A stretch of 56,831 nucleotides of DNA from a virus. Shown here in pieces: positions 455-34,676 of the stretch. The notes under the pieces were generated by a model. The model was not told the DNA's origin and searched no databases. It saw nothing but the letters and a program-made list of their open reading frames with translations. A program made the position numbers and the translations under genes. The stretch lies in the IMG/VR virus record IMGVR_UViG_3300012929_000004; one strand, given 5' to 3'. Numbering within the stretch: position 1 is the stretch's first letter; each line of letters starts with the position of its first letter.

Positions 455-1009
455 ATGCATCAAACTTGGTTTACTTCAGACTCTCATTTTTCGCACCAAA
501 ACATCCTTCAGTTCGAAGCTGAAGCTCGTCCATTTGCCACTATTGAAGAAATGAATGAAGCTCTTGTGGGGTGTTGGAACTCGGTAGTTAAACCACAAGA
601 CAAAGTTTATCACTTAGGTGACTTTTGTTTTGGCGGTAAGCAGAATATAGCTATTGCTGATAGACTTAACGGCAATAAACGATTAGTCATGGGCAATCAT
701 GACCAGTATCCGGTAACTGAGTATGCTAAATACTTTCAGAAGATATATGGCGTTAAATTTTGGGATGATTGTATCCTATCACATGTTCCGGTGCATCCTT
801 ACAATATGCAAGGTGAAAAGAGACGATGTGTGTTGAATATTCATGGCCATCTTCATTCAAAAATAATGCCGTCACCATTATATTATTGTGTTAGTGTTGA
901 ACAGAATAATTTAACACCTATCAATGCTGATATTATTAGGACAAGAGTTATAGTTTTAAAAATGGCGGAGAGGGATGCGGAGAGAGATAATGACTTACAA
1001 CAATGGTGA
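455..1009 (+). CDS. Calcineurin-like metallophosphoesterase
   Basis: Ordered metallophosphoesterase motifs SDSHFSH, HLGDFCFGG, GNHD and HGHLH in a 184-aa protein. Confidence 0.8.
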   Translation: MHQTWFTSDSHFSHQNILQFEAEARPFATIEEMNEALVGCWNSVVKPQDKVYHLGDFCFGGKQNIAIADRLNGNKRLVMGNHDQYPVTEYAKYFQKIYGVKFWDDCILSHVPVHPYNMQGEKRRCVLNIHGHLHSKIMPSPLYYCVSVEQNNLTPINADIIRTRVIVLKMAERDAERDNDLQQW

Positions 1010-3755: not shown

Positions 3756-4107
3756 GAAGTGCAGCAATAGGTTGGAATTGCGCCAACTTCCAGAATTTTC
3801 CGATATTTGACTCATGAGGCTAATTTTTCACCTCAGTCTGCACTCTTAGGGGGCTTACCGGGTGTCTGTGTTCAAACCCGTTTGACCCTCGACGGTCTCT
3901 TGAAAAGATGAACTACTTCCTCTCTCATCTGGCGCATCACCACCGTTACCGAGTTAATCGACGTGTCACTGTCCGCGTCGCTATTGCTGCCACGCAAGTA
4001 TAGCAACTATCCGGAAATCCCGGATAGTTCAAAACCATTCGCAATTCGCGAGTAGCAAACAAAAACTGTTATAAGGGGGATGGCAATCTGCCGCGCTCCT
4101 TTTATTG

Positions 4108-4180
4108 TCAGGCGTAGCTCAACGGTCTAGAGCCCTTACTTGTCGTAGGGAAGATGCGGGTTTGAATCCCGTCGCCTGGC
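4108..4180 (+). tRNA. tRNA-like gene, non-canonical anticodon arm (anticodon probably UGU, Thr)
   Basis: Hand fold:
- acceptor tcaggcg/cgcctgg
- D arm gctc-aacggtcta-gagc
- T arm gcggg-tttgaat-cccgt
The anticodon arm is either cctta/taggg with loop cttgtcg (C at position 37, no nucleotide 26) or a 6-bp stem with a 5-nt loop. No encoded CCA. Confidence 0.55.
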
Positions 4181-4639
4181 GGCCAGCCATATACCACAAA
4201 TAATTGCTGCTTTCAATACTTAGAGCTGCCCGTTACATGCAGAGGGCAATCTCTCGCAATTAATTTACAATTATTATTGATTGATTATTTCAGTATTTTT
4301 ATTGTTTTTATGTTGATAAATATAACCTATAAACTATTTCTTAAGCCCGCGTGGCGGTAGGCTAAAAGTTCCCGGATATATGTAGCCGGGAATTCCACTC
4401 CTTAAATAGGTCGCAAATTCAAAACAGTTCTCGACTAAAAGGGAGAACCTCAAAAAATAACTGAGGTTTTCTGCTTAGTTGTACGGATAAATCGTACAGC
4501 TGCCTATCAAGGATTCCTTAATACCGCCCTTCCATTATTTAGCCACCTCAACTATACTGACCTTGCTAATATTATCCTGTTAGTCAAGCGCGCACGCGCT
4601 GTAATACTTTTGGTTTAATTACTGAGGTTTGCTAGCAGG

Positions 4640-7213
4640 ATGTCTAACCCGTCTCCTCTTAATCCCGCTGCACAAAATGCACCATTTTCTCGTGGGCCTA
4701 ACTCTATTGCTCGGATTGCACCTCAAGGCTTTGATATGGGTAGCCAGGATAACTCTGGGGAAGATGAAACGTCCCCAGAGGCTACTTCTAACTTCTACGC
4801 TAACCTTGCCGAAGATATCTCAGAAGAAAAGCTTTCCAGTATTGCAGCTAGGTTACTAGATGATATTAAGCAAGACTTAGAGTCCCGCTCAGAGTGGGAA
4901 AACACCATGACTCTGGGTATGAAGTATCTAGGTTTTAAAGTGGAAGAGTTCCGAGACGTGCCATTCATGCGCGCCTGCTCTGCTGTTGATGCGACCCTAT
5001 CGACTGCCCTATTGCACTTCTATTCGACAGCTCGTGCTGAATTATTTCCGGCTAGCGGACCTGCTCGCTCAGAGATTATCGGCAGCCCAACCCCTGAAGT
5101 AGAAGACCAGGGTGAACGCGTCAAGATGTTCATGAATTGGTACCTGACGGTTAAGGACAAGGATTACTATTCTGACTCAGAACGTCTCATCATGTTTGTT
5201 GGCTTGATGGGGTGTGGTTTTAGGAAAGTCTATCAAGACCCTATAGTGAGTCGTCCCTTAGCCCGCTTTATCCCTCCCCAAGACTTCATTATCAATAACC
5301 ACGCCACTTCTATTAATAGCTCAGACCGAATGACTGAAGTGGTCTTCTTAAGCCGTAAGGATGTATTGCTCAGGCAAGCTTCTGGTGACTTCATTGATTT
5401 TGACTTACCTAAACTCTCAGATGATAACGATGAAGAAAAGTCAAAAGTCAGCAAGAGCATCTCTAAGATGGAAGGCGTTCAAACGGATGCCCATGAGAAC
5501 AAATCTTTATTCAAATTCTATGAGTCCCACGTCAATATGGATATTGATGACGTGGAGCCAAAGAAGAAGCGAGGAAAGGTAAAAAACAAGGACCGTGACA
5601 TTCCTCGTCCCTATATAGTCACCGTATGTTGCGTGACTAAGAAGGTGGTCTCTATCAGACGGAACTGGAAAGAGAGTGATGATAAGTACGAACGTATTGA
5701 GCACTATGTTCATTACTACTACTTACCAGGGTTTGGCATTTACTCATTGGGTCTATCCCAAATCATGGGTTCAAACGCCATTACCCTAACGAGCATTACG
5801 CGGCAATTGGTCGATGCTGCAACGCTTAAGAACTTCCCAGGTGGGTTAAGGATGCGAGGGATGAGCATCGAAAATAACGACAAGGCTGTCGGTCCTGCTG
5901 AATGGTTGGAAGTTGAAACCGGTGGAATGTCATTGGCTGAATGCATCATGCCAATGCCCTATGCTGAGCCATCCGCGGTTCTATTAGAGCTCAGAACGCA
6001 ACTCAAGCAAGACACCGCTACATTGGTCTCCACTGCGGAAACGGAAATTCCGGAGATGGGTAGCAACATGCCTGTAGGGACTACGCTGGCATTGTTAGAA
6101 GTGGCCAATAAATTACAATCTTCCATATTACGCTCACTACATGTTTCATTAGGATATGAGCTTCGCTTGCTCTTTGAACTGTTTGGCGAATATTTAGAAG
6201 AAGCCCCTTATCCGTTTGCAGTACCAGGGAAAGATACTGCCATCATGAAGAAGGACTTTAACGATAAGGTAAGCATTGTTCCGGTATCAGACCCTAATGT
6301 ACTGACGAGTACACATAGGTTAATGCGCAATGAAGCATTGCTTAAATTAGCGCAATCTAATCCGGAAATCCATGATATGCGGGAAGCCTATCATCGGATG
6401 TATCAAGCAATGAATGTTGACAACATCGACAAGCTATTGCCTGAAAAGCCAAAGCCAATGTCGATTGACCCTATGGCTGAGAATATGCTGATGCTAGCAG
6501 GGAAAGAAATCACTGTGAAGCTCTTCCAGGACGACGACTCACACATTTCGGTACATCATGCATTTTCTCAGAATCCATTAGTCATGGGGAACCCGCAAGT
6601 TTATGCGACAGTATTACTGCACGAACAAATGCATAAATCTTTCAAAGCCTTCAAGACTATTTTCAAGCAAAAGAAAACCCAAGAAATAGAACAGCAGATT
6701 CAACAACAAATGCAACCACTTATTCAGCAACAAATGTTCATGCTGGAGTCACAAGGTATTCCTGCTGATGCCGCCAAGCAAATGCTGCAACAACAAATGC
6801 AACCACAGCTAGAACAAATGCTTCAGGAACAGGTAGCGAAAATCCAATTACCAGAAATACCGGATGAACAAGTACAGCAGTTAATCGCTGACCCTGAAGT
6901 GCAGAACATGGTTGCCAAACAAGATGCAGAAGCGCAGGCCGCTGAAGCAAAAGCCGCAGCCGAAAAAGCAGAGCAACAACTTAATCCTGACAAAGTCATG
7001 GTCATGGAAATTGGACAACGTAGGGAGGCGTCACATCTGAAGGATGAAGCAGACAAACTTAAAGCGGAAACGGAAGCCTTTAAAGCACAACTTAAGTTTG
7101 AATCTGAAACGGCTAAAACGGAAAGCCAAAGAGAAATTGCCAGCGAGAAGCATGAAGTTGATATCGCGCTCGCTGAGCATAAATCAGTACAACCACATGT
7201 TGGAGCAATATAA
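4640..7213 (+). CDS. Portal protein candidate with a long Q-rich / A-E-K-rich C-terminal extension
   Basis: 857 aa and the first gene of the late operon. It lies upstream of the scaffold-like and capsid genes. No diagnostic motif was verified. Confidence 0.65.
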   Translation: MSNPSPLNPAAQNAPFSRGPNSIARIAPQGFDMGSQDNSGEDETSPEATSNFYANLAEDISEEKLSSIAARLLDDIKQDLESRSEWENTMTLGMKYLGFKVEEFRDVPFMRACSAVDATLSTALLHFYSTARAELFPASGPARSEIIGSPTPEVEDQGERVKMFMNWYLTVKDKDYYSDSERLIMFVGLMGCGFRKVYQDPIVSRPLARFIPPQDFIINNHATSINSSDRMTEVVFLSRKDVLLRQASGDFIDFDLPKLSDDNDEEKSKVSKSISKMEGVQTDAHENKSLFKFYESHVNMDIDDVEPKKKRGKVKNKDRDIPRPYIVTVCCVTKKVVSIRRNWKESDDKYERIEHYVHYYYLPGFGIYSLGLSQIMGSNAITLTSITRQLVDAATLKNFPGGLRMRGMSIENNDKAVGPAEWLEVETGGMSLAECIMPMPYAEPSAVLLELRTQLKQDTATLVSTAETEIPEMGSNMPVGTTLALLEVANKLQSSILRSLHVSLGYELRLLFELFGEYLEEAPYPFAVPGKDTAIMKKDFNDKVSIVPVSDPNVLTSTHRLMRNEALLKLAQSNPEIHDMREAYHRMYQAMNVDNIDKLLPEKPKPMSIDPMAENMLMLAGKEITVKLFQDDDSHISVHHAFSQNPLVMGNPQVYATVLLHEQMHKSFKAFKTIFKQKKTQEIEQQIQQQMQPLIQQQMFMLESQGIPADAAKQMLQQQMQPQLEQMLQEQVAKIQLPEIPDEQVQQLIADPEVQNMVAKQDAEAQAAEAKAAAEKAEQQLNPDKVMVMEIGQRREASHLKDEADKLKAETEAFKAQLKFESETAKTESQREIASEKHEVDIALAEHKSVQPHVGAI

Positions 7214-8302
7214 ATGAGTGAAAGATGGGTTTCCGGTTATCACGGTGAAGATTCCTTAAGAAACAAAGCGCATAGAATGTTAGGCCATGAAATGAAAGGG
7301 GCTAAATATAAAGTGCCTGAAAGCATGTCAACGCATGACCATACCAAGATGCGTCCTTATGCAGAAGGTGGCCACGCCGAGGGTGGAAAGGCTGAAGATG
7401 GCAAGATGAAACGTGGTGGCCACGCTAAGCATCATAAGCTTAATCATGGTCAAACCGACTTACATATCCCGCATCGCGAAAAAGCGCCTGCAATGGCCCA
7501 TATGAGCCGTAGAAAGTCTGATTGCCTAAAGCATGGTGGAACGCCAAAGCTGAATGTAGAAACCGTTCGTGAATTTGAACACATGAAGCGTGGTGGTAAA
7601 TCTCATCACCATCATTACGCAGAAGGTGGTCATGCTGAGGGAGGAAAGGCTTCTGGCGGAGACATCATGAAGAAGGGCGGTCATGCGCATCATACCGCTC
7701 AGCATAAGCATCATGCGGCACGGGCAGCCATGCATAAGAAAGAACTAGCCAACCTGAACAAGGTGAAACATGAGATTCATGAAGAAGGTAATTATCGTCA
7801 TGGTGGCCATGTGCATCATAAGCGTCATCATGCAGATGGCGGAGTCATCCAAGCGGGCGGCCCATTCGGTCAAGCTGTAGCACCAGTTGCACCACAAGTG
7901 GCGCAAGCACAACAACCTATGAGAAAAGGGGGACATATGAAAAAGCATAAGGCTTCTGGTGGAACTATTTACGAACACCACATGGTTGGCGAAAGACCAT
8001 CGCATAAGAGACCTAATTTTAACTATGAATCAGAAATGCGCGGTGAAAAGCCCGTTCGTAAGCCAAGCTCACGCCATGAGTCTAAGCGTGGCTTAGATGA
8101 TAAGAACCATGGGCAAATATTTGCCGAAGGTGGTCACGCTTACGGCGGCGTTATGAAGCGTGGCGGTCATACACATCATAAAGCAGCTGGTGGTGAAACC
8201 AGAATGGCGGCAGGCGGCGTTGGCAAGATTCGCCATAACGCAGCGACTGCAAGCGGCAAACCAAAAGGTGCAGGACGAGTCATTCGGAACAATCTGTTTT
8301 GA
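7214..8302 (+). CDS. Histidine/glycine/lysine-rich repeat protein (virion-module gene)
   Basis: The ATG directly follows the portal stop. Repeats include YAEGGHAEGGKA, MKRGGH.HH, RHGGHVHHKRHHADGG and FAEGGHAYGGVMKRGGHTHH. Confidence 0.7.
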   Translation: MSERWVSGYHGEDSLRNKAHRMLGHEMKGAKYKVPESMSTHDHTKMRPYAEGGHAEGGKAEDGKMKRGGHAKHHKLNHGQTDLHIPHREKAPAMAHMSRRKSDCLKHGGTPKLNVETVREFEHMKRGGKSHHHHYAEGGHAEGGKASGGDIMKKGGHAHHTAQHKHHAARAAMHKKELANLNKVKHEIHEEGNYRHGGHVHHKRHHADGGVIQAGGPFGQAVAPVAPQVAQAQQPMRKGGHMKKHKASGGTIYEHHMVGERPSHKRPNFNYESEMRGEKPVRKPSSRHESKRGLDDKNHGQIFAEGGHAYGGVMKRGGHTHHKAAGGETRMAAGGVGKIRHNAATASGKPKGAGRVIRNNLF

Positions 8303-8541
8303 TTCTAAAGTTCTGTGATGGTTTGTTATTTAAAATACGCGAACGCCAGGTGTTAGTGGCTACACGGCTAACATCTGGCAACTGCAAAGATTTTGAAGAA
8401 TACAAGTTACTGCTAGGAAGATTGCAGGGCTTAAAGGAGTCAGAGGATATCGTTAAAAAGATATTCGATGACACGTTTAAAACCACACGGTTATACGAAG
8501 AGGGAGAAAAGAATGACGGAACCAAAGCTGAGTTTTATTGA
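8299..8541 (+). CDS. Hypothetical protein (doubtful; no ATG, TTG/GTG start only)
   Basis: 80-codon ORF filling the 8302-8513 gap. No SD was seen. Confidence 0.3.
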   Translation: MILKFCDGLLFKIRERQVLVATRLTSGNCKDFEEYKLLLGRLQGLKESEDIVKKIFDDTFKTTRLYEEGEKNDGTKAEFY

Positions 8542-8992
8542 GCCTCACGAAGAAGCAGAGGCAAAAGAGTTAATCAAAACACATTTAATAGATGCCTCAG
8601 GCCTATTAGATTTTGAACCCCCACGACCTGCCGGTTATCACATGGCAGTCAAGCTCTACATTCGCGCAGAAGATGTTCACGGCCTAAAAGATGATGCAGG
8701 TAATGCAATCTTAGGTGCTGATGGCAAGCCCATGTTTATCGCATTACCAAGCTCTGTGACCGCTAATGACAAGTGGCGCTCATGCGTTGCCTTAGTGGTT
8801 GCGCAAGGTCCAGAAGCTTATCAAGGCGATAGATTTAAGCGTAGCGGCCCTTGGTGCAAAGTTGGGGACTGGGTAATCATTCCCCGCAATGAAGGCACAC
8901 AAATCAATTATCGCGGTATTCCTATGCAGATTATTCCAGATGACCGCGTGTTAGGAATCGTAGAAGACCCAAGTTACGTAACCAGAGATTAA
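8513..8992 (+). CDS. GroES/Gp31-like co-chaperonin-fold protein (candidate)
   Basis: ATG at 8513 with SD gaggga. The pattern YHMAVKLY, VALVVAQGPEAY, KVGDWVIIP, DDRVLGIVEDP resembles the cpn10 layout (VlaVG.G, kvGD.V, dILa.v). Confidence 0.5.
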   Translation: MTEPKLSFIEPHEEAEAKELIKTHLIDASGLLDFEPPRPAGYHMAVKLYIRAEDVHGLKDDAGNAILGADGKPMFIALPSSVTANDKWRSCVALVVAQGPEAYQGDRFKRSGPWCKVGDWVIIPRNEGTQINYRGIPMQIIPDDRVLGIVEDPSYVTRD

Positions 8993-16733: not shown

Positions 16734-19700
16734 ATGATTAATTTAGTATCGCCAACCACGTTCACGACTGCGGTTTTGATTGCAGATACCTTTAACGCAC
16801 CAAGGGGCTCTGTGGATTCTATTCGTACCATTACGCAAGTGGGAACACAAGCTGCAAGTGTCGCGTTAGAAATACAGTCTGTTCTTGGGGCACTGCTGGT
16901 TTCAAGAATGACGACTACGCAAAAGCTTGCATTGACGCCCGCTAATGGAATGATGATTTACGATATTACTTTAAACGAGTTTTCCTTCTATGAAGCAGGT
17001 GCATGGGTAAATATTCCTACCACTACCGTATCATCCATAACGGCGGCAGCACCAAACTTAACAGGTGGCACGATTACGTCTACCGGCACTATCGGGCTTA
17101 ATCCTGTATTAATAGGATTAACCGCCATTACCGTTGGTAATATTACTCTGCAAAACAATTCCATCGCGGCTACTAATCTTAATGAATCATTGGTTTTTAC
17201 ATCTAACGGCACCGGTACCAATGATTTTATCGGGACAGTTCAATATCAGCATGGCTTCACAGGGTTTCAGGATAACGTTAACAATATCGCTGCCGGCACT
17301 TTTGATTATCAAGTGTTATCAACCGATAGCGTATTACTGCCAAACACAACGATAAATGCGGTTACTTTAGTATTGCCAGCCAATCCTTCAACGGGACAGA
17401 CTTACAAGATTATTGACGCTGATGGTAATGCATCTTCATATAATGTTTACCTAAATGGCAATGGGGAACTGATTAATTTCGTATTGCCTATCGTTACCAG
17501 AACCATTGCAACTGGCTCTAGCCCTACCGCTATTGCTGTAACGCCTGATGGTACTCAGGTTTATATTACTGACCATGGCGCTACAAGTGCTAACGTCACT
17601 ATCCTAACGGGTGCTTCTACGACACCCACTGTATTGACTACTCTGAATGCGGCAACTACACCTAGTGATGTTGCGATATCAGCTGACGGAACAACGGCAG
17701 GTGTTGTAAATACTGGTAGCAATAGTGTCACATTTATCACCGGTGTATCGACAGCGACGCCTACCATATTGGCAGCAGGTGTTACCGTGGGAACGTCTCC
17801 TCAGCATATTGTTATTACCAGCACGTCTGCTCATGCGTTGGTGACTAACCTTACTACTAATGATGTCTCAGTAATAACAGCGGTGACTACAGCGCCAGCC
17901 GTCTCGGCTACTGTAACTTTAAGTCCGACCGGTTTAGCGCCAAATGCTATTGCGCTTACGCCAAGCTCTAACAGAGCCTTTGTATGTAATACGGGTAGCT
18001 CTAACGTATCGGTATTAATCAATGCTGATACTGATACGCCTACAGTTGGGTTTACTGTACCAATGGGAACCGCACCACAAGACCCTAATGTGATAGCGAT
18101 TACACCTGATGGAAGTAGGGCCTACGTGGGAAATGCTGCCGGCAACATTACCTCTATATCAAACGCCACGACGGGAACGCCTTCTGTAGGGCCAGTTTTT
18201 AATTTACCTGCTGGTTCATTTCCTACTGCTATCGCGATATCACCTAATGGGGACTATGTTTACGTAGCGAGTAGCACAACAAATCTAATTACGGTTATAA
18301 ATGCTGCTTCATCAAGCTCGCCAACATTTCAGCAGAATATTATAATTGGAACCGCTGTTCATTCAATGGTGTTTTCACCAGACAATAATTTTATTTACAT
18401 ATCAGACCAGAACGACGGCATTGTCTATGTTTTCCAAGATGCTGCGTCGCCTAATCCCACGTTATTGGAAGCGGTCTCAACGTTCTCCAATAGCGGTAGC
18501 GGTCTTTTAGCTATTACCCCTAATGGCGTTAATGTATTTGTAACGGATGCAAACGCAAATGCAGTTGCAGTGATTAAGGGCGCAGCATCGCCAACGCTTC
18601 CAACGCTTGGCACGGCTGTTACGGTGGGTACTAATCCTTTTGGTATCGCAATCACGCCTAACGGTCAGCATCTTTACACGGCAAATTTTGGCGCTAATAC
18701 AGTATCACGCGTCTTTAATCCCGACACAGCAACACCAACCGTATTAACGCCCGCCTTAACGGTAGGAACGCACCCTCAACGTCTATTGGTAACGCCAGAT
18801 GGTGGCTTCTTATACGTATCTAACGATACTACTAATTGCCCTGTGACTGTTTTTAGAGATGCTTCTACCATAAATCCGATACTGGTAACGACACTGTCGT
18901 CTGTTGCGTGGTCGGGAGTAGCGGACTTAAAAGTAACGCCTAATGGAGTTTTTGTTTACGTAGTTAATCAAACGTCTCATAATCTAGGGGTTATTCAGAA
19001 TGCCAATACGACCAACCCAACAGTAGCGATGACCCTAGCTTTGCCTGGCGTTACCACAACTGGCTTCATGGCTATTACGCCGAATGGTAATTATGCTTAT
19101 GTGACTAACGCTGGAACTAATAATATTTCCGTTATTCAGAACGTTTCCACCGCAGCCCCAAGCGTACTAACTACCTTGCCTGCCGGTACAAACCCAGAGG
19201 CAGCAGCAATTACACCGGATGGGAATTTCGTCTATGTAACAAACGGTACTTCAGCCAATGTGACTGTTATACAAAACGCTTCAACGAATACGCCTACCGT
19301 ATTAACCACGATACCTGCTGGCGCCGGTGCAGCAGGTGTTAGCATATCGCCCAATGGAAATTTTGTCTATGTCAGCAATGCTAATGCCGGTACGATAACG
19401 GTTATCCAAAATGCTGATACAGCTTCACCTAGTGTGTTGGCAACGCTTACTCTTGCTGTAGGTGCAACGCCAGATGTCGTCGTGTTTACGTCACAAGGTA
19501 ATTTTGCCTACGTTAATAACACAAACGATGACACTGTCGTTGTTATTCAAAATGCGCAATCTGGTTCACCATCAGTATTGACGACACTAACTGGCGGCGG
19601 AATGTCAGGTATATTCGCCCTTGCTTTTACTCCCGATGGGCATTATGGCTACGTAGCGAACGGCTCTGCCAGTACTTTGTCCGTCATCGTAAATGGTAAC

Positions 19701-19778
19701 GTGGAATTCCCGCTTATCACCAGTAACTTTGGTGCTAAGAATGTCATCTTTAATGGCTTTGACTGGAGTGTCTATTAA
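16734..19778 (+). CDS. Tail fibre / receptor-binding protein with 16 YVTN-like beta-propeller repeats
   Basis: Has the conserved fibre N-terminus and an NLTGGTITSTGTIGL module. Sixteen repeats of about 45 aa of the type IAITPDG.F.YVTN...N.VSVI follow. Confidence 0.8.
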   Translation: MINLVSPTTFTTAVLIADTFNAPRGSVDSIRTITQVGTQAASVALEIQSVLGALLVSRMTTTQKLALTPANGMMIYDITLNEFSFYEAGAWVNIPTTTVSSITAAAPNLTGGTITSTGTIGLNPVLIGLTAITVGNITLQNNSIAATNLNESLVFTSNGTGTNDFIGTVQYQHGFTGFQDNVNNIAAGTFDYQVLSTDSVLLPNTTINAVTLVLPANPSTGQTYKIIDADGNASSYNVYLNGNGELINFVLPIVTRTIATGSSPTAIAVTPDGTQVYITDHGATSANVTILTGASTTPTVLTTLNAATTPSDVAISADGTTAGVVNTGSNSVTFITGVSTATPTILAAGVTVGTSPQHIVITSTSAHALVTNLTTNDVSVITAVTTAPAVSATVTLSPTGLAPNAIALTPSSNRAFVCNTGSSNVSVLINADTDTPTVGFTVPMGTAPQDPNVIAITPDGSRAYVGNAAGNITSISNATTGTPSVGPVFNLPAGSFPTAIAISPNGDYVYVASSTTNLITVINAASSSSPTFQQNIIIGTAVHSMVFSPDNNFIYISDQNDGIVYVFQDAASPNPTLLEAVSTFSNSGSGLLAITPNGVNVFVTDANANAVAVIKGAASPTLPTLGTAVTVGTNPFGIAITPNGQHLYTANFGANTVSRVFNPDTATPTVLTPALTVGTHPQRLLVTPDGGFLYVSNDTTNCPVTVFRDASTINPILVTTLSSVAWSGVADLKVTPNGVFVYVVNQTSHNLGVIQNANTTNPTVAMTLALPGVTTTGFMAITPNGNYAYVTNAGTNNISVIQNVSTAAPSVLTTLPAGTNPEAAAITPDGNFVYVTNGTSANVTVIQNASTNTPTVLTTIPAGAGAAGVSISPNGNFVYVSNANAGTITVIQNADTASPSVLATLTLAVGATPDVVVFTSQGNFAYVNNTNDDTVVVIQNAQSGSPSVLTTLTGGGMSGIFALAFTPDGHYGYVANGSASTLSVIVNGNVEFPLITSNFGAKNVIFNGFDWSVY

Positions 19779-21256: not shown

Positions 21257-21274
21257 TGGTTGGAGGGCGTCAAC

Positions 21275-21772
21275 ATGACAATGACAGTAGCACTTAAAAA
21301 AGATTACATAGACGCTAATGCTGAAAAGTTTTTGTCAGGATTTACTGTTGGGAATGATAAAGATTGCTGGGAATGGCAGGCGGGCTGTTATAAAGATGGT
21401 TATGGCGGCATTAATATTAAAGGACAAAAAAAAAGAACCGTTAAAGCTCATCGATATTCGTATGAATACTTTATTGGACCCATTCCTCAAGGTATGTGCG
21501 TCATGCACAAGTGCGACAACCCTAAATGTATTAACCCATCTCATTTATCCGTCGGAACACATTTGCAAAATATGCGCGACCGAGATAGCAAAAGAAGAAG
21601 TCCGTTTGGTGAAAACCATCCCAACGCTAAGCTGACCGAAGCTAAGGTTTTAGAAATTAAATCATTATTAAACGATGGCGAATCTTTGATGTCGGTCTCT
21701 TTAAAATACGGGGTCCACAAATCTCATATTTACAGCATAAAGTCTGGTTTAAGATGGAGCCACGTATCATGA
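21275..21772 (+). CDS. HNH homing endonuclease (HNH_3-like with C-terminal HTH)
   Basis: DCWEW...GYG...HRYSYE...MHKCDNPKCINPSHLSVGTHLQN. SD ggaggg precedes the ATG at 21275. Confidence 0.85.
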   Translation: MTMTVALKKDYIDANAEKFLSGFTVGNDKDCWEWQAGCYKDGYGGINIKGQKKRTVKAHRYSYEYFIGPIPQGMCVMHKCDNPKCINPSHLSVGTHLQNMRDRDSKRRSPFGENHPNAKLTEAKVLEIKSLLNDGESLMSVSLKYGVHKSHIYSIKSGLRWSHVS

Positions 21773-22401
21773 CAATGACGTACTCATCATTATTTAATCA
21801 AGTACTCAGCTATCTTGACCGTACAGATATAGATACCACTAATCAAGTTGCAAATTTTATTTTCCAGGCGCAGCAGAGAATTGCGCGTGACACTAAGACT
21901 CTTGGTCTTGAAGTATACGCTACCGGTTTATTAACGCCTGGGGTTGCAGTTTATGCCAAGCCTGCTAATTGGCGCAGAAACATAACATTTAATGTTGGAA
22001 CCGGTTCCACCAATAATGCCAGAAGCCCTGTACTATTAAGAAGTTATGAATTTCTTATCAATTATTGGCCAAACAGGACCTTAACGGCAACACCTTTATA
22101 TTACTGCGATTACGGTTATAGTAATTATTTATTAGCGCCAACCCCTGATGCTGCATATCCATTTGAGTTTAGCTTTTTAGAGCTGCCAACCCCAATCACA
22201 CCGCTTAACCAAACGAATTGGCTTACTAATTTCGCACCTGATGTTCTTCTGTATGCTACGCTTTTGGAAGCAACTCCATACCTGAAGGACGATGAAAGAT
22301 TGGGTATGTGGGAGGACCAATACAAGAAACGTATTGATTCACTCAACGGACAAGATGACCAACGTGTATACGACCGTCAGTCAAATAGGAGCGCAGACTG
22401 A
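21769..22401 (+). CDS. Head-tail adaptor-like protein (candidate)
   Basis: The ATG overlaps the HNH stop (ATGA). The N-terminal pattern Y..L...VL.YLDR.D......FI..AQ.RI.RD recalls adaptor/connector families. Confidence 0.55.
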   Translation: MTMTYSSLFNQVLSYLDRTDIDTTNQVANFIFQAQQRIARDTKTLGLEVYATGLLTPGVAVYAKPANWRRNITFNVGTGSTNNARSPVLLRSYEFLINYWPNRTLTATPLYYCDYGYSNYLLAPTPDAAYPFEFSFLELPTPITPLNQTNWLTNFAPDVLLYATLLEATPYLKDDERLGMWEDQYKKRIDSLNGQDDQRVYDRQSNRSAD

Positions 22402-24068
22402 TGGCCGTTCCTGATAAAATTTATCCTTTCAGTATGCACCCTGGCGTTCAAAGGGATGGTACGCAATTTTCATCCCAAGCTTTTATTGACGGCCAGTGGT
22501 GTCGCTGGTACCGCCAACTTCCTAAAAAGATGGGTGGCTTTGTTCAGATTACCAATCAGATTAATAATATCCCACGAGGAATCTTTGTCACGCCTAATAC
22601 GCCAAACTTTGACGTCTATATCGGCGATGCTGATAGTTTAAACTTTATTACGATTGACCCAACGGGCGCGCCGGTATCGAACCTGCAAGACCGTACACCT
22701 GCTTTCTTTCAAGCAGACGCTAATAATCTCTGGTCATTCGACGTGATGTTCTCAACCGTTGATAATGGGTCTATTCTCATTGCGCACGCAGCACCTAATC
22801 TAGCTAGCATTGAAAACACCGTTGAGCGCCCTGTTTATTTTGGAGAGCTTGGCACCAATACCCCCTTAACACCTACCGGATTCACTACCGCTGGCGGCAT
22901 TGTCGTATTACATCCCTTCTTGTTTATCTTCGACATTAACGGTGGCGTTATCTGGACCAATGCAAATGACCCCACCACAGAGCTTGGTTCTGCGCGCGTC
23001 ACTGCTTCAAAAATAGTACAGGGACTATCGGCACGCGCTGGTAATACGTCTCCTGGTGGCTTGCTATGGAGCTTAGATAGCGTCATTCGTGTAACCCAAG
23101 TGGGAACAGCAGCGATTGAATTCGCATTCGATACCATTACCTCTGAAAGCTCAATCCTGAGTTCGCAATCGGTGATTGAATACGATGGTGTTTATTATTG
23201 GGCTGGTGTTGACCGTTTCTTATTTTATGATGGTATTGTTCGCGAACTACCAAATTCCATGTCGTTACGTTTCTTTTTTACTAATTTAAATTTTGCACAA
23301 CGCCAAAAAGTGTGGGCTACAAAAGTCGCTGAATTTGGTGAAATCTGGTGGCACTTTCCTTTTGGTAATAGCGTAGAATGTAATCATGCAATCGTTTACA
23401 ACATCCGCGAAAAAACTTGGTATGACACTGCTATTAATCGCTCTGATGGTTATTTTGACCAGACTTTTGCCTTCCCTGTCTGGGCTGGGAATTCACAGAA
23501 TTCTTTTAGCGCGACTCTTACTTGGTCTCAGATAACCTCGCCTGTCTGGCATCTACTAACCGACTTAAGCTTTTTTGCCTTTGGCCTGGCTGACAATTAT
23601 TCCATCTGGATGCATGAAAATGGTGTTGACCAAAATATTAATGGCAACCTCACTGCGATTGAATCACATTTTGAATCTGGCAATATTGCTTGGGTCGCCT
23701 TTGACCCTAATTCTCAGCGCAAAGAAATAGACCGCTGGGTTTATCTGTATCGTGTCGAACCTGACTTTGTGCAATCCGGTAATCTTACGCTTGTTGTTAA
23801 TGGTCGAGAATATGCACGTTCACCCGTCGTGAGCTCAACGCAAACTTGGCCTCTTTGGGATAGCTACGTTTGGTCGCAAATCCCTATAAATTTAGTGCCA
23901 AATTGGTCCACCTGGGGTGATTACGTGTTTGATGCAAATAGCGTTAAAATAGACATGCGCGAACAACGACGCGAAATGACTTTAAAATTCCATAGTTTCA
24001 GCATTGGCGGAGATTATGAAATGGGCCAAACCTTATTGGTGGCCAGAATCGGGGACGCAAGACAATGA
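22401..24068 (+). CDS. Large virion structural protein (tail tube/nozzle candidate)
   Basis: 555 aa with TGATG coupling. Called from position only. Confidence 0.6.
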   Translation: MAVPDKIYPFSMHPGVQRDGTQFSSQAFIDGQWCRWYRQLPKKMGGFVQITNQINNIPRGIFVTPNTPNFDVYIGDADSLNFITIDPTGAPVSNLQDRTPAFFQADANNLWSFDVMFSTVDNGSILIAHAAPNLASIENTVERPVYFGELGTNTPLTPTGFTTAGGIVVLHPFLFIFDINGGVIWTNANDPTTELGSARVTASKIVQGLSARAGNTSPGGLLWSLDSVIRVTQVGTAAIEFAFDTITSESSILSSQSVIEYDGVYYWAGVDRFLFYDGIVRELPNSMSLRFFFTNLNFAQRQKVWATKVAEFGEIWWHFPFGNSVECNHAIVYNIREKTWYDTAINRSDGYFDQTFAFPVWAGNSQNSFSATLTWSQITSPVWHLLTDLSFFAFGLADNYSIWMHENGVDQNINGNLTAIESHFESGNIAWVAFDPNSQRKEIDRWVYLYRVEPDFVQSGNLTLVVNGREYARSPVVSSTQTWPLWDSYVWSQIPINLVPNWSTWGDYVFDANSVKIDMREQRREMTLKFHSFSIGGDYEMGQTLLVARIGDARQ

Positions 24069-24307: not shown

Positions 24308-25078
24308 ATGGGATTTTTTGGAGATTTATGGGGCGGCGTGAAGTCAGGTCTTAGCTCACTTGCACCTATTGCAGGGACTCTCTTGGGTGGCGCTTATGGC
24401 GGACCCGGCGGGGCTATGATGGGCAGTCAATTAGGAGGCGCTGTAGGCAATCTGTTTGGCGGTGGTGGCCAACAAGAGCAACCACAACAACAACAGCCGC
24501 AACAACCTAATGTAGGTGGCGCTATCACTAATGGGATGAATAGCTATATCCCTCAGCAGATGCAGAACCAGACTTTTGGGCAAATGGGGCAAAATATGCA
24601 GAACCGGGCTGGTAATGCGATGAATCGCTTCCTGGGCCCTGAAGCCGGACAAGCAGGTCTTGGGCAAGCGCTTAGTGGTGCAGCTGGGCAGTTCTTAGGG
24701 AATCGCTTTGGGGGAATGATGCCTCAGGGTTGGCAGAATCAGAGCCTTGGTGGCTTAACACAGCAAGCGGGTGATTATGCGCAAAGCATGATGCCACAAA
24801 TGCCTCAAGGTGGTGGTTTTGGCGGTGGCCAAGGCTTCCAAGAAATGGGCGGCAATGCCATGAACAGCATGATGCCTTCTGAGTTTGGTCAAGCGGGCGT
24901 TGGTAATGCGATGTCTAATGCCATGGGTAACTATATGGGCAACCGTATGGGCGGTCGTGGTGGTCGTCGCGCTTATGCTGCTGGTGGTTATGCGCAGGGT
25001 GGTCATCCGATGCCTAATCTTCGAGAGATGATGGAGTTGCTTCCGCCCCCACAACAAATGCCCATGATGGCGCACTAA
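24308..25078 (+). CDS. G/Q/M/N-rich low-complexity protein (internal virion/ejection candidate)
   Basis: Strong SD aaggagaagg. Ends with YAAGGYAQGGHPMP, a motif shared with 7214..8302. Confidence 0.6.
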   Translation: MGFFGDLWGGVKSGLSSLAPIAGTLLGGAYGGPGGAMMGSQLGGAVGNLFGGGGQQEQPQQQQPQQPNVGGAITNGMNSYIPQQMQNQTFGQMGQNMQNRAGNAMNRFLGPEAGQAGLGQALSGAAGQFLGNRFGGMMPQGWQNQSLGGLTQQAGDYAQSMMPQMPQGGGFGGGQGFQEMGGNAMNSMMPSEFGQAGVGNAMSNAMGNYMGNRMGGRGGRRAYAAGGYAQGGHPMPNLREMMELLPPPQQMPMMAH

Positions 25079-25617
25079 TGTTTGGGCAACTGTTAGAGCT
25101 ATTGCGCACCTTAGCGCCTCATCTACAAGGGGGCGCTAATCCGCTTGCGGCATTTACCCCACAGATGCAGCAACAGCAGCATCCTAAATATGCTCATGGG
25201 GGTCTCGTTAACCATCGGCACTTAGGACATATCAAATTGTCTGATAGTGGTGGGCAAGCGGATGACATTCATATGCGAATACCTGAGGGCTCATACGTGG
25301 CGAATGCGACGGATTTATCGCTCTTAGGAGATGGTAGTACTGATAACGGCGTGAAACGTATACAGGACTTTGAAGCAAAGTTTACTAAGAGCGGTATTCA
25401 TCGGCCTTATGAAGATAAGTTGATTGACGCGAAGGTATCTAATGATGAATATGTTATCAGCCCCAGCACGATTGATGCGCTAGGTAAGGGCGATAACAAG
25501 AAGGGCGCCAAGGTGATGGATAGGTTACGTAAGAACTTGCGCAAACAGAAAGGCGTTAAAGCGATATTACCGCCTAAGACTAAAGATATTCATAGTTATA
25601 TGAAAGGAGGTAAATAA
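25078..25617 (+). CDS. Internal virion protein candidate (KYAHGGLV motif)
   Basis: TAATG coupling, 179 aa. Confidence 0.6.
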   Translation: MFGQLLELLRTLAPHLQGGANPLAAFTPQMQQQQHPKYAHGGLVNHRHLGHIKLSDSGGQADDIHMRIPEGSYVANATDLSLLGDGSTDNGVKRIQDFEAKFTKSGIHRPYEDKLIDAKVSNDEYVISPSTIDALGKGDNKKGAKVMDRLRKNLRKQKGVKAILPPKTKDIHSYMKGGK

Positions 25618-34446: not shown

Positions 34447-34676
34447 TGCTTACGCAGTATAGAGCTAGGCTGATAGAAGCGCTCAAAAAGGAAAAGAGCG
34501 CTTCTAACCGCATCTTAAAGAGAGCGGCAGTATTGCATATGGAGTGGCGCAAGATTGAGCAGCAATTACTCATCTCTCAGCGTAATGCTCAGTTTTTAGC
34601 TGAGCGTTTAGCGGTGGTTGAAAAGCATGATTCTGGGGAACCTATCGCTCATCCAAAAGGTAAGCATTTGAAATAA
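34446..34676 (+). CDS. Coiled-coil protein, island paralogue family 2 (N-terminal MLTQY)
   Basis: TAATG coupling. Its 3' end overlaps the convergent RNA ligase gene by 35 nt. Confidence 0.5.
   Translation: MLTQYRARLIEALKKEKSASNRILKRAAVLHMEWRKIEQQLLISQRNAQFLAERLAVVEKHDSGEPIAHPKGKHLK

What the first reader, a model, noticed from the sequence alone, without database searches (positions are those of the whole stretch)
7214..8302. Extremely His/Gly/Lys-rich repeat protein encoded directly after the portal gene
The 362-aa product consists largely of degenerate repeats. They combine [YF]-A-E-G-G-H-A-x-G-G with basic K-[RK]-G-G-H-x-H-H blocks:
- PYAEGGHAEGGKAEDGKMKRGGHAKHHK
- HHYAEGGHAEGGKASGGDIMKKGGHAHHTAQHKHH
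- RHGGHVHHKRHHADGG
- RKGGHMKKHKASGG
- FAEGGHAYGGVMKRGGHTHHKAAGG

Runs such as SHHHHY resemble metal-binding proteins, not known virion components. The gene starts immediately after the portal stop codon with no intervening bases, so it is very likely expressed with the head genes. The Y-A-x-G-G element recurs at the C-terminus of 24308..25078 (YAAGGYAQGGH) and the N-terminus of 25078..25617 (KYAHGGLV), which points to a shared interaction or processing motif. I know of no described function.
Basis: seen in the sequence. Interest (0 to 1): 0.7.

Follow-up and report, generated by a model that had tools for sequence, protein, structure and literature searches.

The report
Disordered basic protein encoded after portal
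The gene right after the portal gene of this uncultured short-tailed phage encodes a real, conserved, floppy and strongly positively charged glycine/histidine/lysine-rich protein. It belongs to a previously undescribed phage family and is most likely carried inside the phage head. Its histidine richness is a local peculiarity, not the family's key feature.

Summary
Window 7214..8302 (+) encodes a 362-aa protein (G 14.9%, H 13.0%, K 10.8%; pI 10.2; +30 at pH 7.5, +68 at pH 5.5). Its ATG abuts the portal TAA.

- **Repeats:** It has 19 GG dipeptides (6.7±1.9 expected from composition). Fourteen sit in a Φ-[AKR]-x-G-G context (0.5 expected).
- **Real gene:** dN/dS is 0.16 against an orthologue, and a GGAG Shine-Dalgarno lies 8 nt upstream.
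- **Unannotated family:** 319 clusters at 50% identity. In 8 of 8 contexts the order is portal → this → ~80 aa → GroES-like → scaffold-like → MCP. There is no match in Pfam, PHROGs, NCBIfam, PDB, cultured phages or GTDB genomes.
- **Structure:** AlphaFold2 predicts disorder.
- **Histidine:** His-richness is not a family trait (0–19%, median 5%). It trades off against Lys+Arg.
- **Conserved features:** six short anchor blocks, net positive charge and a variable number of GG units.
- **Shared motif:** The Φ-A-x-G-G motif is conserved in orthologues of a protein in the post-nozzle (ejection-protein) cluster. It also occurs in portal-flanking proteins of distant relatives, one of which has an SLT transglycosylase domain.

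Best reading, by inference only: a disordered polycationic capsid-internal (cargo/ejection) protein loaded at the portal vertex. Dedicated metal binding is unlikely to be its core function.

The parts
7214..8302 (+). Gene for the 362-aa Gly/His/Lys-rich, intrinsically disordered polycationic protein. It is a member of a new 'post-portal' family.
   Evidence: ORF. Composition and motif statistics. dN/dS 0.16 against L009. Family searches. AF2 mean pLDDT 54, pTM 0.18.
7202..7205 (+). Shine-Dalgarno-like GGAG, 8 nt upstream of the ATG and inside the 3' end of the portal gene.
   Evidence: Sequence. Comparison with the AGGAG sites of neighbouring genes.
7226..7300 (+). Anchor block 1 (aa 5-29): W-x-SGYHGEDSLRNKAHRML. 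G8, D13, R16 and A19 are invariant. It is the best-predicted helix (aa 14-29).
   Evidence: Alignment A2. AF2.
7313..7375 (+). Anchor block 2 (aa 34-54): VPESMS..TKMRPYAEGGH. This is the first, invariant GG unit (G52, G53).
   Evidence: Alignment A2.
7430..7597 (+). Anchor block 3 (aa 73-128): HHKLNHGQTDLHIPHRE ... PKLNVETVREFEHMKRGG. The D-L-H-I-P element recurs as DDIHMRIP in the 179-aa protein.
   Evidence: Alignment A2. Motif scan.
7598..7939 (+). Hypervariable, indel-rich spacer (aa 129-242). It consists of His-rich and Φ-[AKR]-x-GG units, a predicted helix at aa 165-188, and an uncharged stretch at aa 209-236. A natural variant (P0001) lacks 39 aa here.
   Evidence: Alignment A2. P0001 comparison. 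DNA repeats D3 and D6.
7940..8053 (+). Anchor block 4 (aa 243-280): KKHKASGGTIYEHHMVGERPSHKRPNFNYESEMRGEKP. It is a duplicated Y-E-x-x-M-x-G-E unit.
   Evidence: Alignment A2. Motif scan.
8093..8134 (+). Anchor block 5 (aa 294-307): D-x-x-HGQ-x-F-x-x-GG.
   Evidence: Alignment A2.
8201..8299 (+). Anchor block 6, the C-terminal tail (aa 330-362): MAAGGVGKIRHNAATASGKP...GRVIRNNLF. A332, G334, G335, K338 and R340 are invariant.
   Evidence: Alignment A2.
4640..7213 (+). Portal gene (857 aa, net charge -33, with an acidic coiled-coil C-terminal 'barrel' of about 200 aa). It lies directly upstream.
   Evidence: PHROG 1216, E 9e-20. tblastn hits to annotated portal proteins. Charge.
8299..8541 (+). 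Conserved 80-aa ORF. Its TTG start overlaps the TGA stop of the His/Gly/Lys gene (TTGA), suggesting translational coupling.
   Evidence: dN/dS 0.15. Positional homologues throughout the supergroup.
8468..8992 (+). GroES-like co-chaperonin. The likely true start is 8513, giving 159 aa as in orthologues.
   Evidence: PHROG 3188. Weak NCBIfam GroES hits. Orthologue lengths.
24974..25012 (+). Y-A-A-G-G-Y-A-Q-G-G motif pair in the 256-aa Gly/Gln/Met-rich protein (24308..25078). The N-terminus of that protein is a glycine-zipper-like hydrophobic segment.
   Evidence: The orthologue L011:3452-4267 has five or six Φ-x-x-GG units in its C-terminal 80 aa.
25189..25209 (+). Y-A-H-G-G-L-V motif in the disordered N-terminal part of the 179-aa protein (25078..25617).
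   Evidence: Conserved as YAHGG, FAQGG, YAGGG, YARGG or FARGG in orthologues, although the preceding region is hypervariable. AF2 predicts residues 1-61 as disordered.
25597..25614 (+). C-terminal Y-M-K-G-G-K of the 179-aa protein.
   Evidence: Conserved as YMKGG, YFRGG, YFKGG or YMTGG in orthologues.

Best explanation
The gene encodes an intrinsically disordered, strongly polycationic protein. It belongs to a new family that is specific to one clade of uncultured short-tailed phages with a SU10-type adaptor and nozzle, distantly related to Pelagibacter phage HTVC023P and phage DSL-LC04.

Shown:
- It is made with the head proteins. It is translationally abutted to the portal gene and coupled to the downstream ORFs.

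Inferred:
- It is most likely loaded into the procapsid at or near the portal vertex and kept inside the mature head as a cargo or ejection-type internal protein.
- Six short conserved anchor blocks act as docking motifs for conserved head components. These include the N-terminal SGYxGEDSMRxKAE helix, the duplicated YExxMxGE unit and the C-terminal AxGGVGKIRH tail.
- The variable middle is a flexible spacer of Φ-[A/K/R]-x-G-G units and Lys/Arg/His clusters. Its charge is +30 at pH 7.5 and up to about +77 if all His are protonated. This lets it bind packaged DNA and/or the acidic portal barrel.
- Being unfolded, it can leave through the portal-nozzle channel at infection together with the downstream ejection proteins, with which it shares the Φ-A-x-G-G motif.
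- In this lineage His has partly replaced Lys/Arg, which makes the charge pH-tunable and incidentally metal-tunable.
For: Real and selected:
- dN/dS is 0.16, in the same range as the neighbouring head-module genes (0.04-0.17).
- There is a Shine-Dalgarno site.
- 31 close homologues were found, and 319 clusters at 50% identity.

Head-module gene:
- The gene order portal → this → ~80 aa → GroES-like → scaffold-like → ~170 aa → ~220 aa → MCP is identical in 8 independent contexts.
- No promoter-like site on the + strand immediately upstream of the gene and no terminator-like site on the + strand between it and 11068; the only + strand promoter-like match is at 6092-6119, inside the portal gene, and counts are at or below chance.

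Disordered:
- AF2 with the family alignment gives pLDDT 54 and pTM 0.18, with only short helices.
- GRAVY is -1.19.

Polycation among acidic partners:
- It is by far the most cationic protein of the structural module (+30; the next is the 737-aa post-nozzle protein at +17).
- The portal is -33 per subunit and the scaffold-like protein is -18.
- All 109 full-length relatives have K+R greater than D+E.
- One relative ends in a canonical GRGRGFGGGRGF RGG box.

Link to ejection proteins:
- Φ-A-x-G-G is conserved in orthologues of the 179-aa protein, and several Φ-x-x-G-G units occur in the C-terminal part of the one examined orthologue of the 256-aa protein. Both lie directly after the adaptor (PF24175) and the nozzle (PDB 8zkk nozzle, E 2.8e-7). 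That is the slot where phage SU10 has its ejection proteins gp20-24 (PMC9509320).
- About 10 of 109 relatives carry a glycine-zipper-like hydrophobic module (GFGGLLGGLGGSFFGGPMGG). In the window phage this module sits at the N-terminus of the 256-aa post-nozzle protein.
- In a distant relative (L005) the post-portal ORF has an SLT transglycosylase domain plus SYADGGIV. SLT domains are a hallmark of ejected proteins such as T7 gp16-N (PMC8954989).
- Ejection proteins are generally recognisable only by size and synteny, not by sequence (PMC8954989).
Against: - There is no direct evidence that the protein is in virions. No cultured phage carries a family member, so no proteomics exists.
- There is no sequence or fold similarity to any known internal or ejection protein.
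- The gene is next to the portal gene, not in the post-nozzle ejection cluster.
- The window protein itself has no glycine-zipper or enzymatic domain.
- Similarity to the 179-aa and 256-aa proteins is at motif level only. hhalign gives E of 0.2-0.3.
- The post-portal slot is empty in some related phages, such as Pag-Yong1 and MW202545. The function is therefore accessory at supergroup level.
- At plausible copy numbers of tens, the protein could neutralise only about 1-3% of the genome's phosphates (my arithmetic).
Confidence: 0.4

Rival explanations
1. Assembly-only factor. This would be a disordered, scaffold-like or portal-chaperoning protein that nucleates or regulates procapsid assembly around the acidic portal and scaffold, and is expelled before or during DNA packaging. 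It would be absent from mature virions.
For: - Its position between the portal and the GroES-like, scaffold-like and MCP genes, with tight translational coupling.
- Its charge is opposite to that of the portal (-33) and the scaffold-like protein (-18).
- Its dN/dS is similar to that of the scaffold-like gene (0.16 against 0.17).
- From my own knowledge, T4 places the prohead-core genes 67 and 68 directly after portal gene 20.
Against: - The shared Φ-A-x-GG motif, and the exchange of the glycine-zipper module with post-nozzle proteins, point to the ejection set.
- The positional analogue in L005 carries an SLT domain, which is useless for assembly.
- The slot is empty in related phages that assemble the same type of head.
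Confidence: 0.2
2. Polyprotein or precursor. The Φ-x-x-G-G units would be double-glycine protease sites, as for adenovirus adenain, ASFV pS273R or C39 bacteriocin peptidases. Cleavage would release many small basic, His-rich peptides inside the head. Some would start with an N-terminal Gly-Gly-His (ATCUN-type Cu/Ni site) if cutting occurred before GG.
For: - There are 14 Φ-[AKR]-x-GG units against 0.5 expected.
- The motif often lies at the boundary between hypervariable and conserved segments. Examples are the 179-aa protein family and the last unit before the conserved C-terminal tail.
- There are 8 GGH triplets.
- From my own knowledge, adenovirus core proteins pVII and pre-Mu are basic DNA-condensing proteins matured at (M/L/I)XGG↓X, and T4 makes internal peptides from gp67, gp68 and gp22.
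Against: - No peptidase family was detected in any of the 47 window ORFs of 120 aa or more, nor in the head-module proteins.
- The MCP is 300 aa, has a separate scaffold-like gene and contains no Φ-x-x-GG motif. This is a protease-independent type of head.
- The hydrophobic residue sits at P5, not P4 as in adenain sites.
- The motif number varies from 2 to 29 per protein.
Confidence: 0.1
3. Dedicated metal-binding protein, as the first reader leaned towards. The His clusters would sequester or deliver Ni, Zn or Cu, for example to stabilise the virion or to manipulate host metal homeostasis.
For: - 13% His, with runs such as HHHH, HAHH..HKHH, HVHHKRHH and 8 GGH triplets.
- Several relatives reach 17-19% His.
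- From my own knowledge, such sequences will bind Ni, Zn and Cu in vitro, as do His-tags, Hpn and histatins.
Against: - His content is not conserved: 0-19%, median 5.1%. Close relatives P0003-P0006 have 5-6%.
- His trades off with Lys+Arg (rho -0.47).
- HH clustering does not exceed the composition expectation.
- None of the invariant columns is a His.
- There is no metalloenzyme or metal-transport context.
Confidence: 0.07
4. Chaperonin-directed protein. The A-x-G-G-Φ-V units would mimic the GroES mobile loop (…AGGIVL…) and recruit or occupy host GroEL, in concert with the phage's own GroES-like and J-domain proteins.
For: - The gene lies two ORFs upstream of a GroES-like gene in every context.
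- The phage also encodes a J-domain protein.
- Units such as YAHGGLV, ADGGVIQ and ASGGTIY, and YADGGLV in relatives, resemble KTAGGII in the related Pag-Yong1 GroES.
Against: - The register differs (A-x-GG against A-GG).
- Most units are followed by His/Lys and then Ala, not by a hydrophobic tripeptide.
- The resemblance is 5-7 residues long and recalled from memory, not tested.
Confidence: 0.04

Closest known systems
Podovirus ejection / internal virion proteins (T7 gp14-gp16, P22 gp7/gp16/gp20, SU10 gp20-24)
   Same: - Late structural-operon gene.
- Poorly conserved, and recognisable only by context (PMC8954989).
- It must be unfolded or extended to pass the portal channel.
- It shares a short motif and a swappable glycine-zipper module with the proteins in the post-nozzle slot that SU10 uses for ejection proteins.
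- A positional analogue carries an SLT domain like T7 gp16-N.
   Different: - No sequence or fold similarity.
- It is encoded next to the portal gene, not after the nozzle.
- It is almost entirely disordered, Gly/His/Lys-rich and repeat-built.
- Presence in virions and ejection are untested.
T4 prohead-core and internal proteins (gp67, gp68, IPI-III); SPP1 gp7 / Mu gpF minor head proteins (PF04233)
   Same: - Encoded directly downstream of the portal gene.
- Small or basic head-internal components that bind the core, portal or DNA and travel with the genome (my own knowledge).
   Different: - No PF04233 match or any other Pfam match, even at E ≤ 1.
- No prohead protease or capsid-targeting leader is recognisable.
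- The composition is entirely different.
Adenovirus core proteins pVII / pre-Mu and adenain (M/L/I)XGG↓X sites
   Same: Polycationic DNA-associated virion-internal proteins that carry double-glycine motifs (my own knowledge).
   Different: - No protease gene was found.
- The hydrophobic residue is at P5, not P4.
- The virus lineage is unrelated.
His-rich metal-binding proteins and peptides (Hpn, HypB/SlyD/UreE tails, histatins); synthetic His-Lys nucleic-acid carriers
   Same: His/Lys/Gly-rich, with H-x-H-H clusters and GGH triplets. The charge is pH-titratable (+30 rising to +68 between pH 7.5 and 5.5).
   Different: His is not conserved in the family. There is no metal-related gene context.
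RGG/GAR boxes of eukaryotic nucleic-acid-binding IDRs; bacterial KGG stress repeat (PF10685)
   Same: Repeated [KR]-G-G or G-G-[HKR] units in a disordered basic protein (5 and 11 copies). One relative has a canonical GRGRGF GAR stretch.
   Different: PF10685 is not matched even at E ≤ 1. The unit here has an upstream hydrophobic residue and Ala/Lys (Φ-[AK]-x-GG). Nucleic-acid binding is untested.
Encapsulin Family-1 cargo targeting peptides (T. maritima GGDLGIRK; GSLxIGSLK)
   Same: The invariant C-terminal block A-x-G-G-V-G-K-I-R-H resembles GGDLGIRK. Encapsulin shells and phage MCPs share the HK97 fold. Targeting peptides bind the inner face of the P-domain by hydrophobic and ionic contacts (PMC10960027).
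   Different: This is an 8-residue resemblance found by eye. The block is about 20 aa from the C-terminus. No binding or co-folding test was possible.

Membership tests
Podovirus ejection / internal virion proteins | Present in mature virions and released on genome ejection | not testable with these tools
   No cultured phage carries a family member, so no proteomics is available.
Podovirus ejection / internal virion proteins | Encoded in the late structural operon | tested here: met
   It abuts the portal gene and shows the same synteny in 8 contexts. No terminator-like site on the + strand between the gene and 11068, and no promoter-like site immediately upstream of it; the one + strand promoter-like match lies at 6092-6119 inside the portal gene.
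Podovirus ejection / internal virion proteins | Sequence or structural homology to a known E-protein (T7 gp14/15/16, P22 gp7/16/20) | tested here: not met
   Pfam, PHROGs, NCBIfam and PDB-sequence searches gave no hits. The AF2 model was too disordered for a fold search.
Podovirus ejection / internal virion proteins | Location in the gene cluster downstream of the tail or nozzle genes | tested here: not met
   The gene lies after the portal gene. However, it shares Φ-A-x-GG and D-x-H-x-IP motifs with the 179-aa protein of that cluster.
Podovirus ejection / internal virion proteins | Membrane-inserting segment or peptidoglycan hydrolase domain | tested here: inconclusive
   The window protein has neither. 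About 10 of 109 relatives have a glycine-zipper-like uncharged segment. The positional analogue in L005 has an SLT domain.
Mu gpF / SPP1 gp7 minor head protein (PF04233) | Match to PF04233 | tested here: not met
   No Pfam hit at E ≤ 0.01 or E ≤ 1.
Mu gpF / SPP1 gp7 minor head protein (PF04233) | Gene immediately downstream of the portal gene | tested here: met
His-rich metal-binding proteins (Hpn-like, histatin-like) | His clusters conserved among orthologues | tested here: not met
   His is 0-19%, median 5.1%. No invariant column is His. HH dipeptides do not exceed the composition expectation.
His-rich metal-binding proteins (Hpn-like, histatin-like) | Specific metal binding | not testable with these tools
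   Needs ITC or ICP-MS on recombinant protein.
KGG stress repeat proteins (PF10685) | Match to the KGG repeat model | tested here: not met
   None of the 29 family members matches PF10685 at E ≤ 1.
Double-glycine protease substrates (adenain / C39 type) | Cognate cysteine protease encoded by the same genome | tested here: not met
   No peptidase family in the 47 window ORFs of 120 aa or more, nor in the head-module proteins. A host protease cannot be excluded.
Double-glycine protease substrates (adenain / C39 type) | Hydrophobic residue at P4 with G-G at P2-P1 | tested here: not met
   The family-wide context is Φ at P5 (M 24%, Y 18%, F 11%) and A/K/R at P4 (80%).
Double-glycine protease substrates (adenain / C39 type) | Actual cleavage after GG | not testable with these tools
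   Needs intact-mass or N-terminal analysis.
Encapsulin-type targeting peptide | Short Gly/aliphatic/basic motif near the C-terminus that binds the inner face of an HK97-fold shell | tested here: inconclusive
   The motif GGVGKIRH is invariant in the family and resembles GGDLGIRK.
RGG/GAR nucleic-acid-binding IDR | Multiple R/K-G-G units in a disordered basic region | tested here: met
   5 [KR]GG and 11 GG[HKR] units. Disorder. pI 10.2.
RGG/GAR nucleic-acid-binding IDR | Nucleic-acid binding | not testable with these tools
   Needs EMSA or fluorescence anisotropy.

The most novel reading that the evidence does not exclude
The conserved short motifs (Φ-A-x-G-G-Φ-V units and the invariant C-terminal A-x-GGVGKIRH block) could form a phage capsid-loading code analogous to encapsulin targeting peptides. 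They would dock disordered cargo proteins onto the inner face of the HK97-fold shell, or onto the portal. The post-portal protein would then be a multivalent, pH-tunable His/Lys 'polymer' that lines the head, binds the leading DNA and is co-ejected. If so, this would be a generic sequence-addressable route for packing proteins into tailed-phage heads.
Probability: 0.1. Interest if true: 0.8.

Novelty: new variant of a known kind. Interest (0 to 1): 0.5.

Why it matters
- **Undescribed family:** The family has about 320 clusters at 50% identity and is invisible to Pfam, PHROGs and structure databases. It nevertheless holds a fixed, strongly selected place in the head operon of a whole clade of environmental podoviruses.
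- **Cargo-recognition motif:** If it is a capsid-internal cargo protein, it would be an extreme case of one: almost fully disordered, built from short linear motifs, with a rapidly varying repeat number. The motif it shares with the post-nozzle proteins would be a concrete candidate for how such phages recognise what to load into the head. That question is open for most podoviruses.
- **Practical use:** A natural His/Lys/Gly polycation with a short docking motif could be used to load foreign cargo into phage heads.
- **If it is only an assembly accessory:** The finding is of modest, mainly annotational value.

Tried and rejected
1. **Known-family searches.** Pfam (E ≤ 0.01 and ≤ 1), PHROGs, NCBIfam and a PDB-sequence profile search gave nothing for the protein or its family.
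2. **Cultured or annotated phages.** tblastn of the window protein, and of a short, less repetitive member (P0014), against 50,697 GenBank phage records gave no match. The low-complexity filter may hide weak hits. Megablast of the head region also gave none.
3. **GTDB genomes.** No relative was found in 185,579 species genomes, so it is not a prophage or cellular family.
4. **Structure.** AF2 with the family alignment gave a disordered model (pLDDT 54), so no fold search was run on it. The AF2 model of the 179-aa motif-sharing protein (pTM 0.50) matched only uncharacterised proteins of uncultured phages in BFVD, and nothing in the PDB.
5. **Profile comparisons.** Comparing the family with the 179-aa and 256-aa proteins and with HTVC023P gp32 gave only motif-length, non-significant alignments. 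A local hmmsearch put the DSL-LC04 post-portal ORFs just below threshold (E 0.6). They are positional analogues, not demonstrable homologues.
6. **Protease hunt.** Negative.
7. **Tandem repeats.** No tandem-repeat or recent-duplication origin was found.
8. **Literature.** Searches for His-rich phage head proteins, HTVC023P, DSL-LC04 and PDB 8ZKK gave no description of this protein.
9. **Rejected: the ORF is spurious.** Antisense ORFs at 7526..7735 and 7745..8005 are the expected by-product of CAT/CAC-rich sense codons. The + frame is under purifying selection.
Full report
**1. The observation**

Window 7214..8302 (+) is a 362-codon ORF. Its ATG (7214-7216) follows the TAA (7211-7213) of the 857-aa ORF 4640..7213 without a gap. 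That upstream ORF is a portal protein: it matches PHROG 1216 at E 9e-20, and it is 30-35% identical to annotated portal or head-to-tail connector proteins of phage DSL-LC04, Pelagibacter phages HTVC023P and HTVC027P, Roseobacter phages CRP-901 and CRP-902, and Caulobacter phages. A GGAG lies 8 nt upstream of the ATG, like the AGGAG sites of the neighbouring head genes.

The product has 14.9% Gly, 13.0% His, 10.8% Lys and 10.2% Ala. Its pI is 10.2, its mass 39.7 kDa and its GRAVY -1.19. Its net charge is +30 at pH 7.5 and +68 at pH 5.5.

Tested against 20,000 composition-preserving shuffles:
- GG dipeptides: 19 observed, 6.7±1.9 expected.
- Φ-[AKR]-x-G-G units: 14 observed, 0.53±0.72 expected.
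- No shuffle reached either observed value.
- HH dipeptides: 10 observed, 6.0±2.1 expected. This is not significant.

The non-random feature is therefore the GG-centred unit, not the clustering of His. At DNA level the units are dispersed and diverged (67-85% identity), and there is no tandem array.

**2. It is a real gene in a real family**

A database search found 31 unannotated metagenomic homologues. A profile search of 1.84 billion cluster representatives found 319 clusters at E ≤ 1e-3, 192 at ≤ 1e-10 and 78 at ≤ 1e-30.

Against the 78%-identical orthologue on contig L009, dN/dS is 0.16. The values for neighbouring genes are 0.095 (portal), 0.17 (scaffold-like) and 0.04 (MCP).

In all eight independent genomic contexts the gene order is the same: portal (794-860 aa) → this gene → ~75-81 aa ORF → GroES-like → scaffold-like (~320 aa) → ~170 aa → ~220 aa → MCP (~300 aa, PF25209). 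The contexts are the window, L004, L006/L007, L008, L009/L010, L012, L013 and L014. The next ORF starts at a TTG that overlaps the TGA stop. On the + strand there is no promoter-like site immediately upstream of the gene and no terminator-like site between it and 11068. The only + strand promoter-like match lies inside the portal gene at 6092-6119, and the counts are at or below chance.

The family has no match in Pfam (even at E ≤ 1), PHROGs, NCBIfam, PDB sequences, 50,697 GenBank phage records or 185,579 GTDB species genomes. Ten IMG/VR viral contigs carry it. The 179-aa protein of the window is found identically on a 56,849-nt public contig. The window is therefore essentially that whole contig, and probably a near-complete genome.

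**3. Anatomy**

The family alignment shows six short conserved anchor blocks. They are separated by indel-rich low-complexity spacers.

| Block | Residues | Sequence or consensus |
|---|---|---|
| 1 | aa 5-29 | W-x-SGYxGEDSMRxKAE |
| 2 | aa 34-54 | PxSMSxPxxxKMRxY-[AK]-x-GGH |
| 3 | aa 73-128 | HxLxHxQTDLHIPR … KLNVE … E-x-MKRGG |
| 4 | aa 243-280 | A-x-GG-x-VYExxMVGExPS…NYESEMxGE |
| 5 | aa 294-307 | D-x-SHGQ-x-F-x-x-GG |
| 6 | aa 330-362 | A-x-GGVGKIRHxxATxxGxP |

- Seventeen columns are invariant, and none of them is His.
- Around GG the family-wide context is Φ (M/Y/F/K) at -3, A/K/R (80%) at -2 and anything at -1. GG is followed by H/K/R and then A/M/V.
- AlphaFold2 with this alignment gives mean pLDDT 54 and pTM 0.18. 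Only short helices are predicted (aa 14-29 and 165-188 are the longest). The protein is essentially disordered.
- A natural variant, P0001, equals the window protein minus 39 aa that include the 165-188 helix. The deletion lies between two CATAAGC(A/G)TCATCATGC repeats. The spacer therefore expands and contracts in nature.

**4. Histidine is not the point**

In 109 full-length members:
- His ranges from 0 to 19%, median 5.1%. The window protein, at 13%, is near the top.
- Gly ranges from 8.6 to 21.9% and K+R from 14 to 27%.
- GG counts range from 2 to 47.
- His% anticorrelates with (K+R)% (Spearman rho -0.47, p = 2e-7).
- Every member has more K+R than D+E.

Close relatives P0003-P0006 have only 5-6% His, while some distant ones reach 17-19%. 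His therefore behaves as a replaceable, titratable cation. A conserved metal site is not supported, although the window protein would certainly bind Ni, Zn and Cu in vitro.

**5. The shared motif is real and extends beyond this genome**

In the window the motif occurs outside this gene mainly in two adjacent ORFs. The 256-aa protein (24308..25078) has YAAGGYAQGG. The 179-aa protein (25078..25617) has YAHGGLV and a C-terminal YMKGGK.

Evidence from orthologues:
- In the five orthologues of the 179-aa protein that cover this region, the motif is kept (YAHGG, FAQGG, YAGGG, YARGG or FARGG). The N-terminal region before it is hypervariable in length, and the C-terminal Φ-x-GG is also kept.
- AF2 puts the motif in a disordered N-terminal 61 residues, ahead of a small α/β domain.
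- The orthologue of the 256-aa protein has five or six Φ-x-x-GG units in its last 80 residues.
- The 179-aa protein also shares a D-x-H-x-IP element with anchor block 3.

These two ORFs lie directly after the SU10-type adaptor (PF24175, 21754..22401) and the nozzle (22401..24068; PDB 8zkk 'nozzle gp16', E 2.8e-7). In phage SU10 that slot holds the ejection proteins gp20-24 (PMC9509320).

A glycine-zipper-like uncharged module (GFGGLLGGLGGSFFGGPMGG…) sits inside the post-portal protein in about 10 of 109 relatives. In the window phage it forms the N-terminus of the 256-aa protein.

Further out in the same portal supergroup:
- DSL-LC04 has two small basic post-portal ORFs with MKSGGSV and YAKGGLV. 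It also has an 825-aa pre-portal protein with three N-terminal Φ-A-x-GG-x-V units.
- MW202545 has similar units in its 890-aa pre-portal protein.
- IMG/VR contig L005 has, directly after its portal gene, an SLT transglycosylase-domain protein (PF01464, 27 bits against a cut-off of 21.3) that carries SYADGGIV.
- Other relatives, such as Pag-Yong1 and MW202545, have nothing between the portal gene and the small ORF.

At supergroup level the post-portal slot is therefore a variable, accessory cargo-like slot.

**6. Most likely function**

Shown: this is a selected, head-operon-encoded, disordered polycation with conserved short motifs. It is by far the most cationic protein of the structural module (the next is the 737-aa post-nozzle protein at +17), beside a -33 portal and a -18 scaffold-like protein.

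Inferred: it is loaded into the procapsid at the portal vertex through its anchor motifs. It stays in the head bound to DNA and/or the acidic portal barrel. Because it is already unfolded, it leaves through the portal-nozzle channel with the other ejection proteins. Ejection proteins are known to need unfolding, and they are identified by synteny, not by sequence (PMC8954989). I put this at about 0.4.

Rivals:
- **Assembly-only scaffold- or portal-chaperone-like factor (0.2).**
- **Polyprotein cut at double-glycine sites (0.1).** This is weakened by three results. No recognisable protease was found in the window. The head is of a protease-independent type, with a 300-aa MCP and a separate scaffold-like gene. 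The hydrophobic residue sits at P5 instead of P4.
- **Dedicated metal-binding protein (0.07).**
- **GroEL-directed mimic of the GroES mobile loop (0.04).**
- **Non-coding or artefactual ORF.** This is rejected.

**7. Comparison with known systems, and novelty**

Functionally the nearest kinds are three groups: podovirus ejection and internal proteins, the T4 prohead-core and internal proteins, and the SPP1 gp7 / Mu gpF minor head proteins that also follow portal genes. Membership in any of these fails on homology.

In composition it recalls RGG/GAR boxes, KGG stress repeats (not matched) and His/Lys nucleic-acid carriers.

The invariant C-terminal GGVGKIRH resembles the T. maritima encapsulin targeting peptide GGDLGIRK, which binds the inner face of an HK97-fold shell (PMC10960027). 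This is an untested lead, but it yields the most interesting reading that is not excluded: a motif-addressed loading code for phage-head cargo.

I rate the finding a new variant of a known kind, probably a phage head-internal protein of an undescribed, motif-built, disordered type. Interest is 0.5.

Noticed in passing
window 16734..19778 (+): The 1014-aa tail protein contains a 7-bladed beta-propeller 'Lactonase' Pfam domain (aa 446-710, E 4.9e-41) and a second propeller-like stretch (aa 786-971). It could be a receptor-binding or enzymatic tail fibre domain.
   Followed up: partly
window 55197..55898 (+) and 8468..8992 (+): The phage encodes a protein with a C-terminal DnaJ/J-domain (E 6.9e-13). 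It also encodes a GroES-like co-chaperonin with a long mobile loop. That makes two co-chaperone mimics in one genome. The likely true start of the GroES-like gene is 8513.
   Followed up: partly
window 8299..8541 (+): A conserved 80-aa ORF (dN/dS 0.15) has a TTG start that overlaps the TGA stop of the His/Gly/Lys gene. Positional homologues precede the GroES-like gene throughout the portal supergroup, including Pag-Yong1 and MW202545. Function unknown.
   Followed up: partly
window 21260..21772 (+): An HNH_3 homing-endonuclease-like ORF is inserted in the tail module just before the SU10-type adaptor gene 21754..22401.
   Followed up: no
window 24308..25078 (+): A 256-aa protein has 24% Gly, 13% Gln and 10.5% Met. 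Its N-terminus is glycine-zipper-like (GTLLGGAYGGPGGAMMGSQLGGAVGNLFGGGG). It is probably a membrane-inserting ejection protein.
   Followed up: partly
window 22401..24068 (+): The 555-aa protein matches the solved 'nozzle gp16' of PDB 8zkk/8zkm (E 2.8e-7). The portal and MCP have no PDB sequence match.
   Followed up: partly
window 34642..35670 (-), 38277..38927 (-), 455..1009 (+), 39320..39841 (+): RNA ligase with a PHA02142 OB-fold domain, an ERF recombinase, a calcineurin-like phosphoesterase and a DUF7226 protein.
   Followed up: no
window 4107..4181 and 44599..44673: tRNA-Thr (tgt) just upstream of the portal gene, and tRNA-Glu (ttc).
   Followed up: no
L008:13603-14928: A related phage contig (JGI 3300036779) carries a 441-aa Porin_4 (PF13609) gene inside its head module, between the ~166-aa ORF and the MCP.
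   Followed up: no
L005:5922-6833: The post-portal ORF of a distant relative has an SLT transglycosylase domain. It is followed by SYADGGIV and the peptide LAHINPLEAALLKKMGGSGTVNPRTGLLEF. The contig ends inside the ORF.
   Followed up: partly
L001:3358-5835 (DSL-LC04) and L017:703-3375 (MW202545): Large pre-portal proteins (825 aa, 'PcfJ-like'; and 890 aa) carry several Φ-A-x-GG-x-V units, three of them in the first 60 residues of the DSL-LC04 protein.
   Followed up: partly
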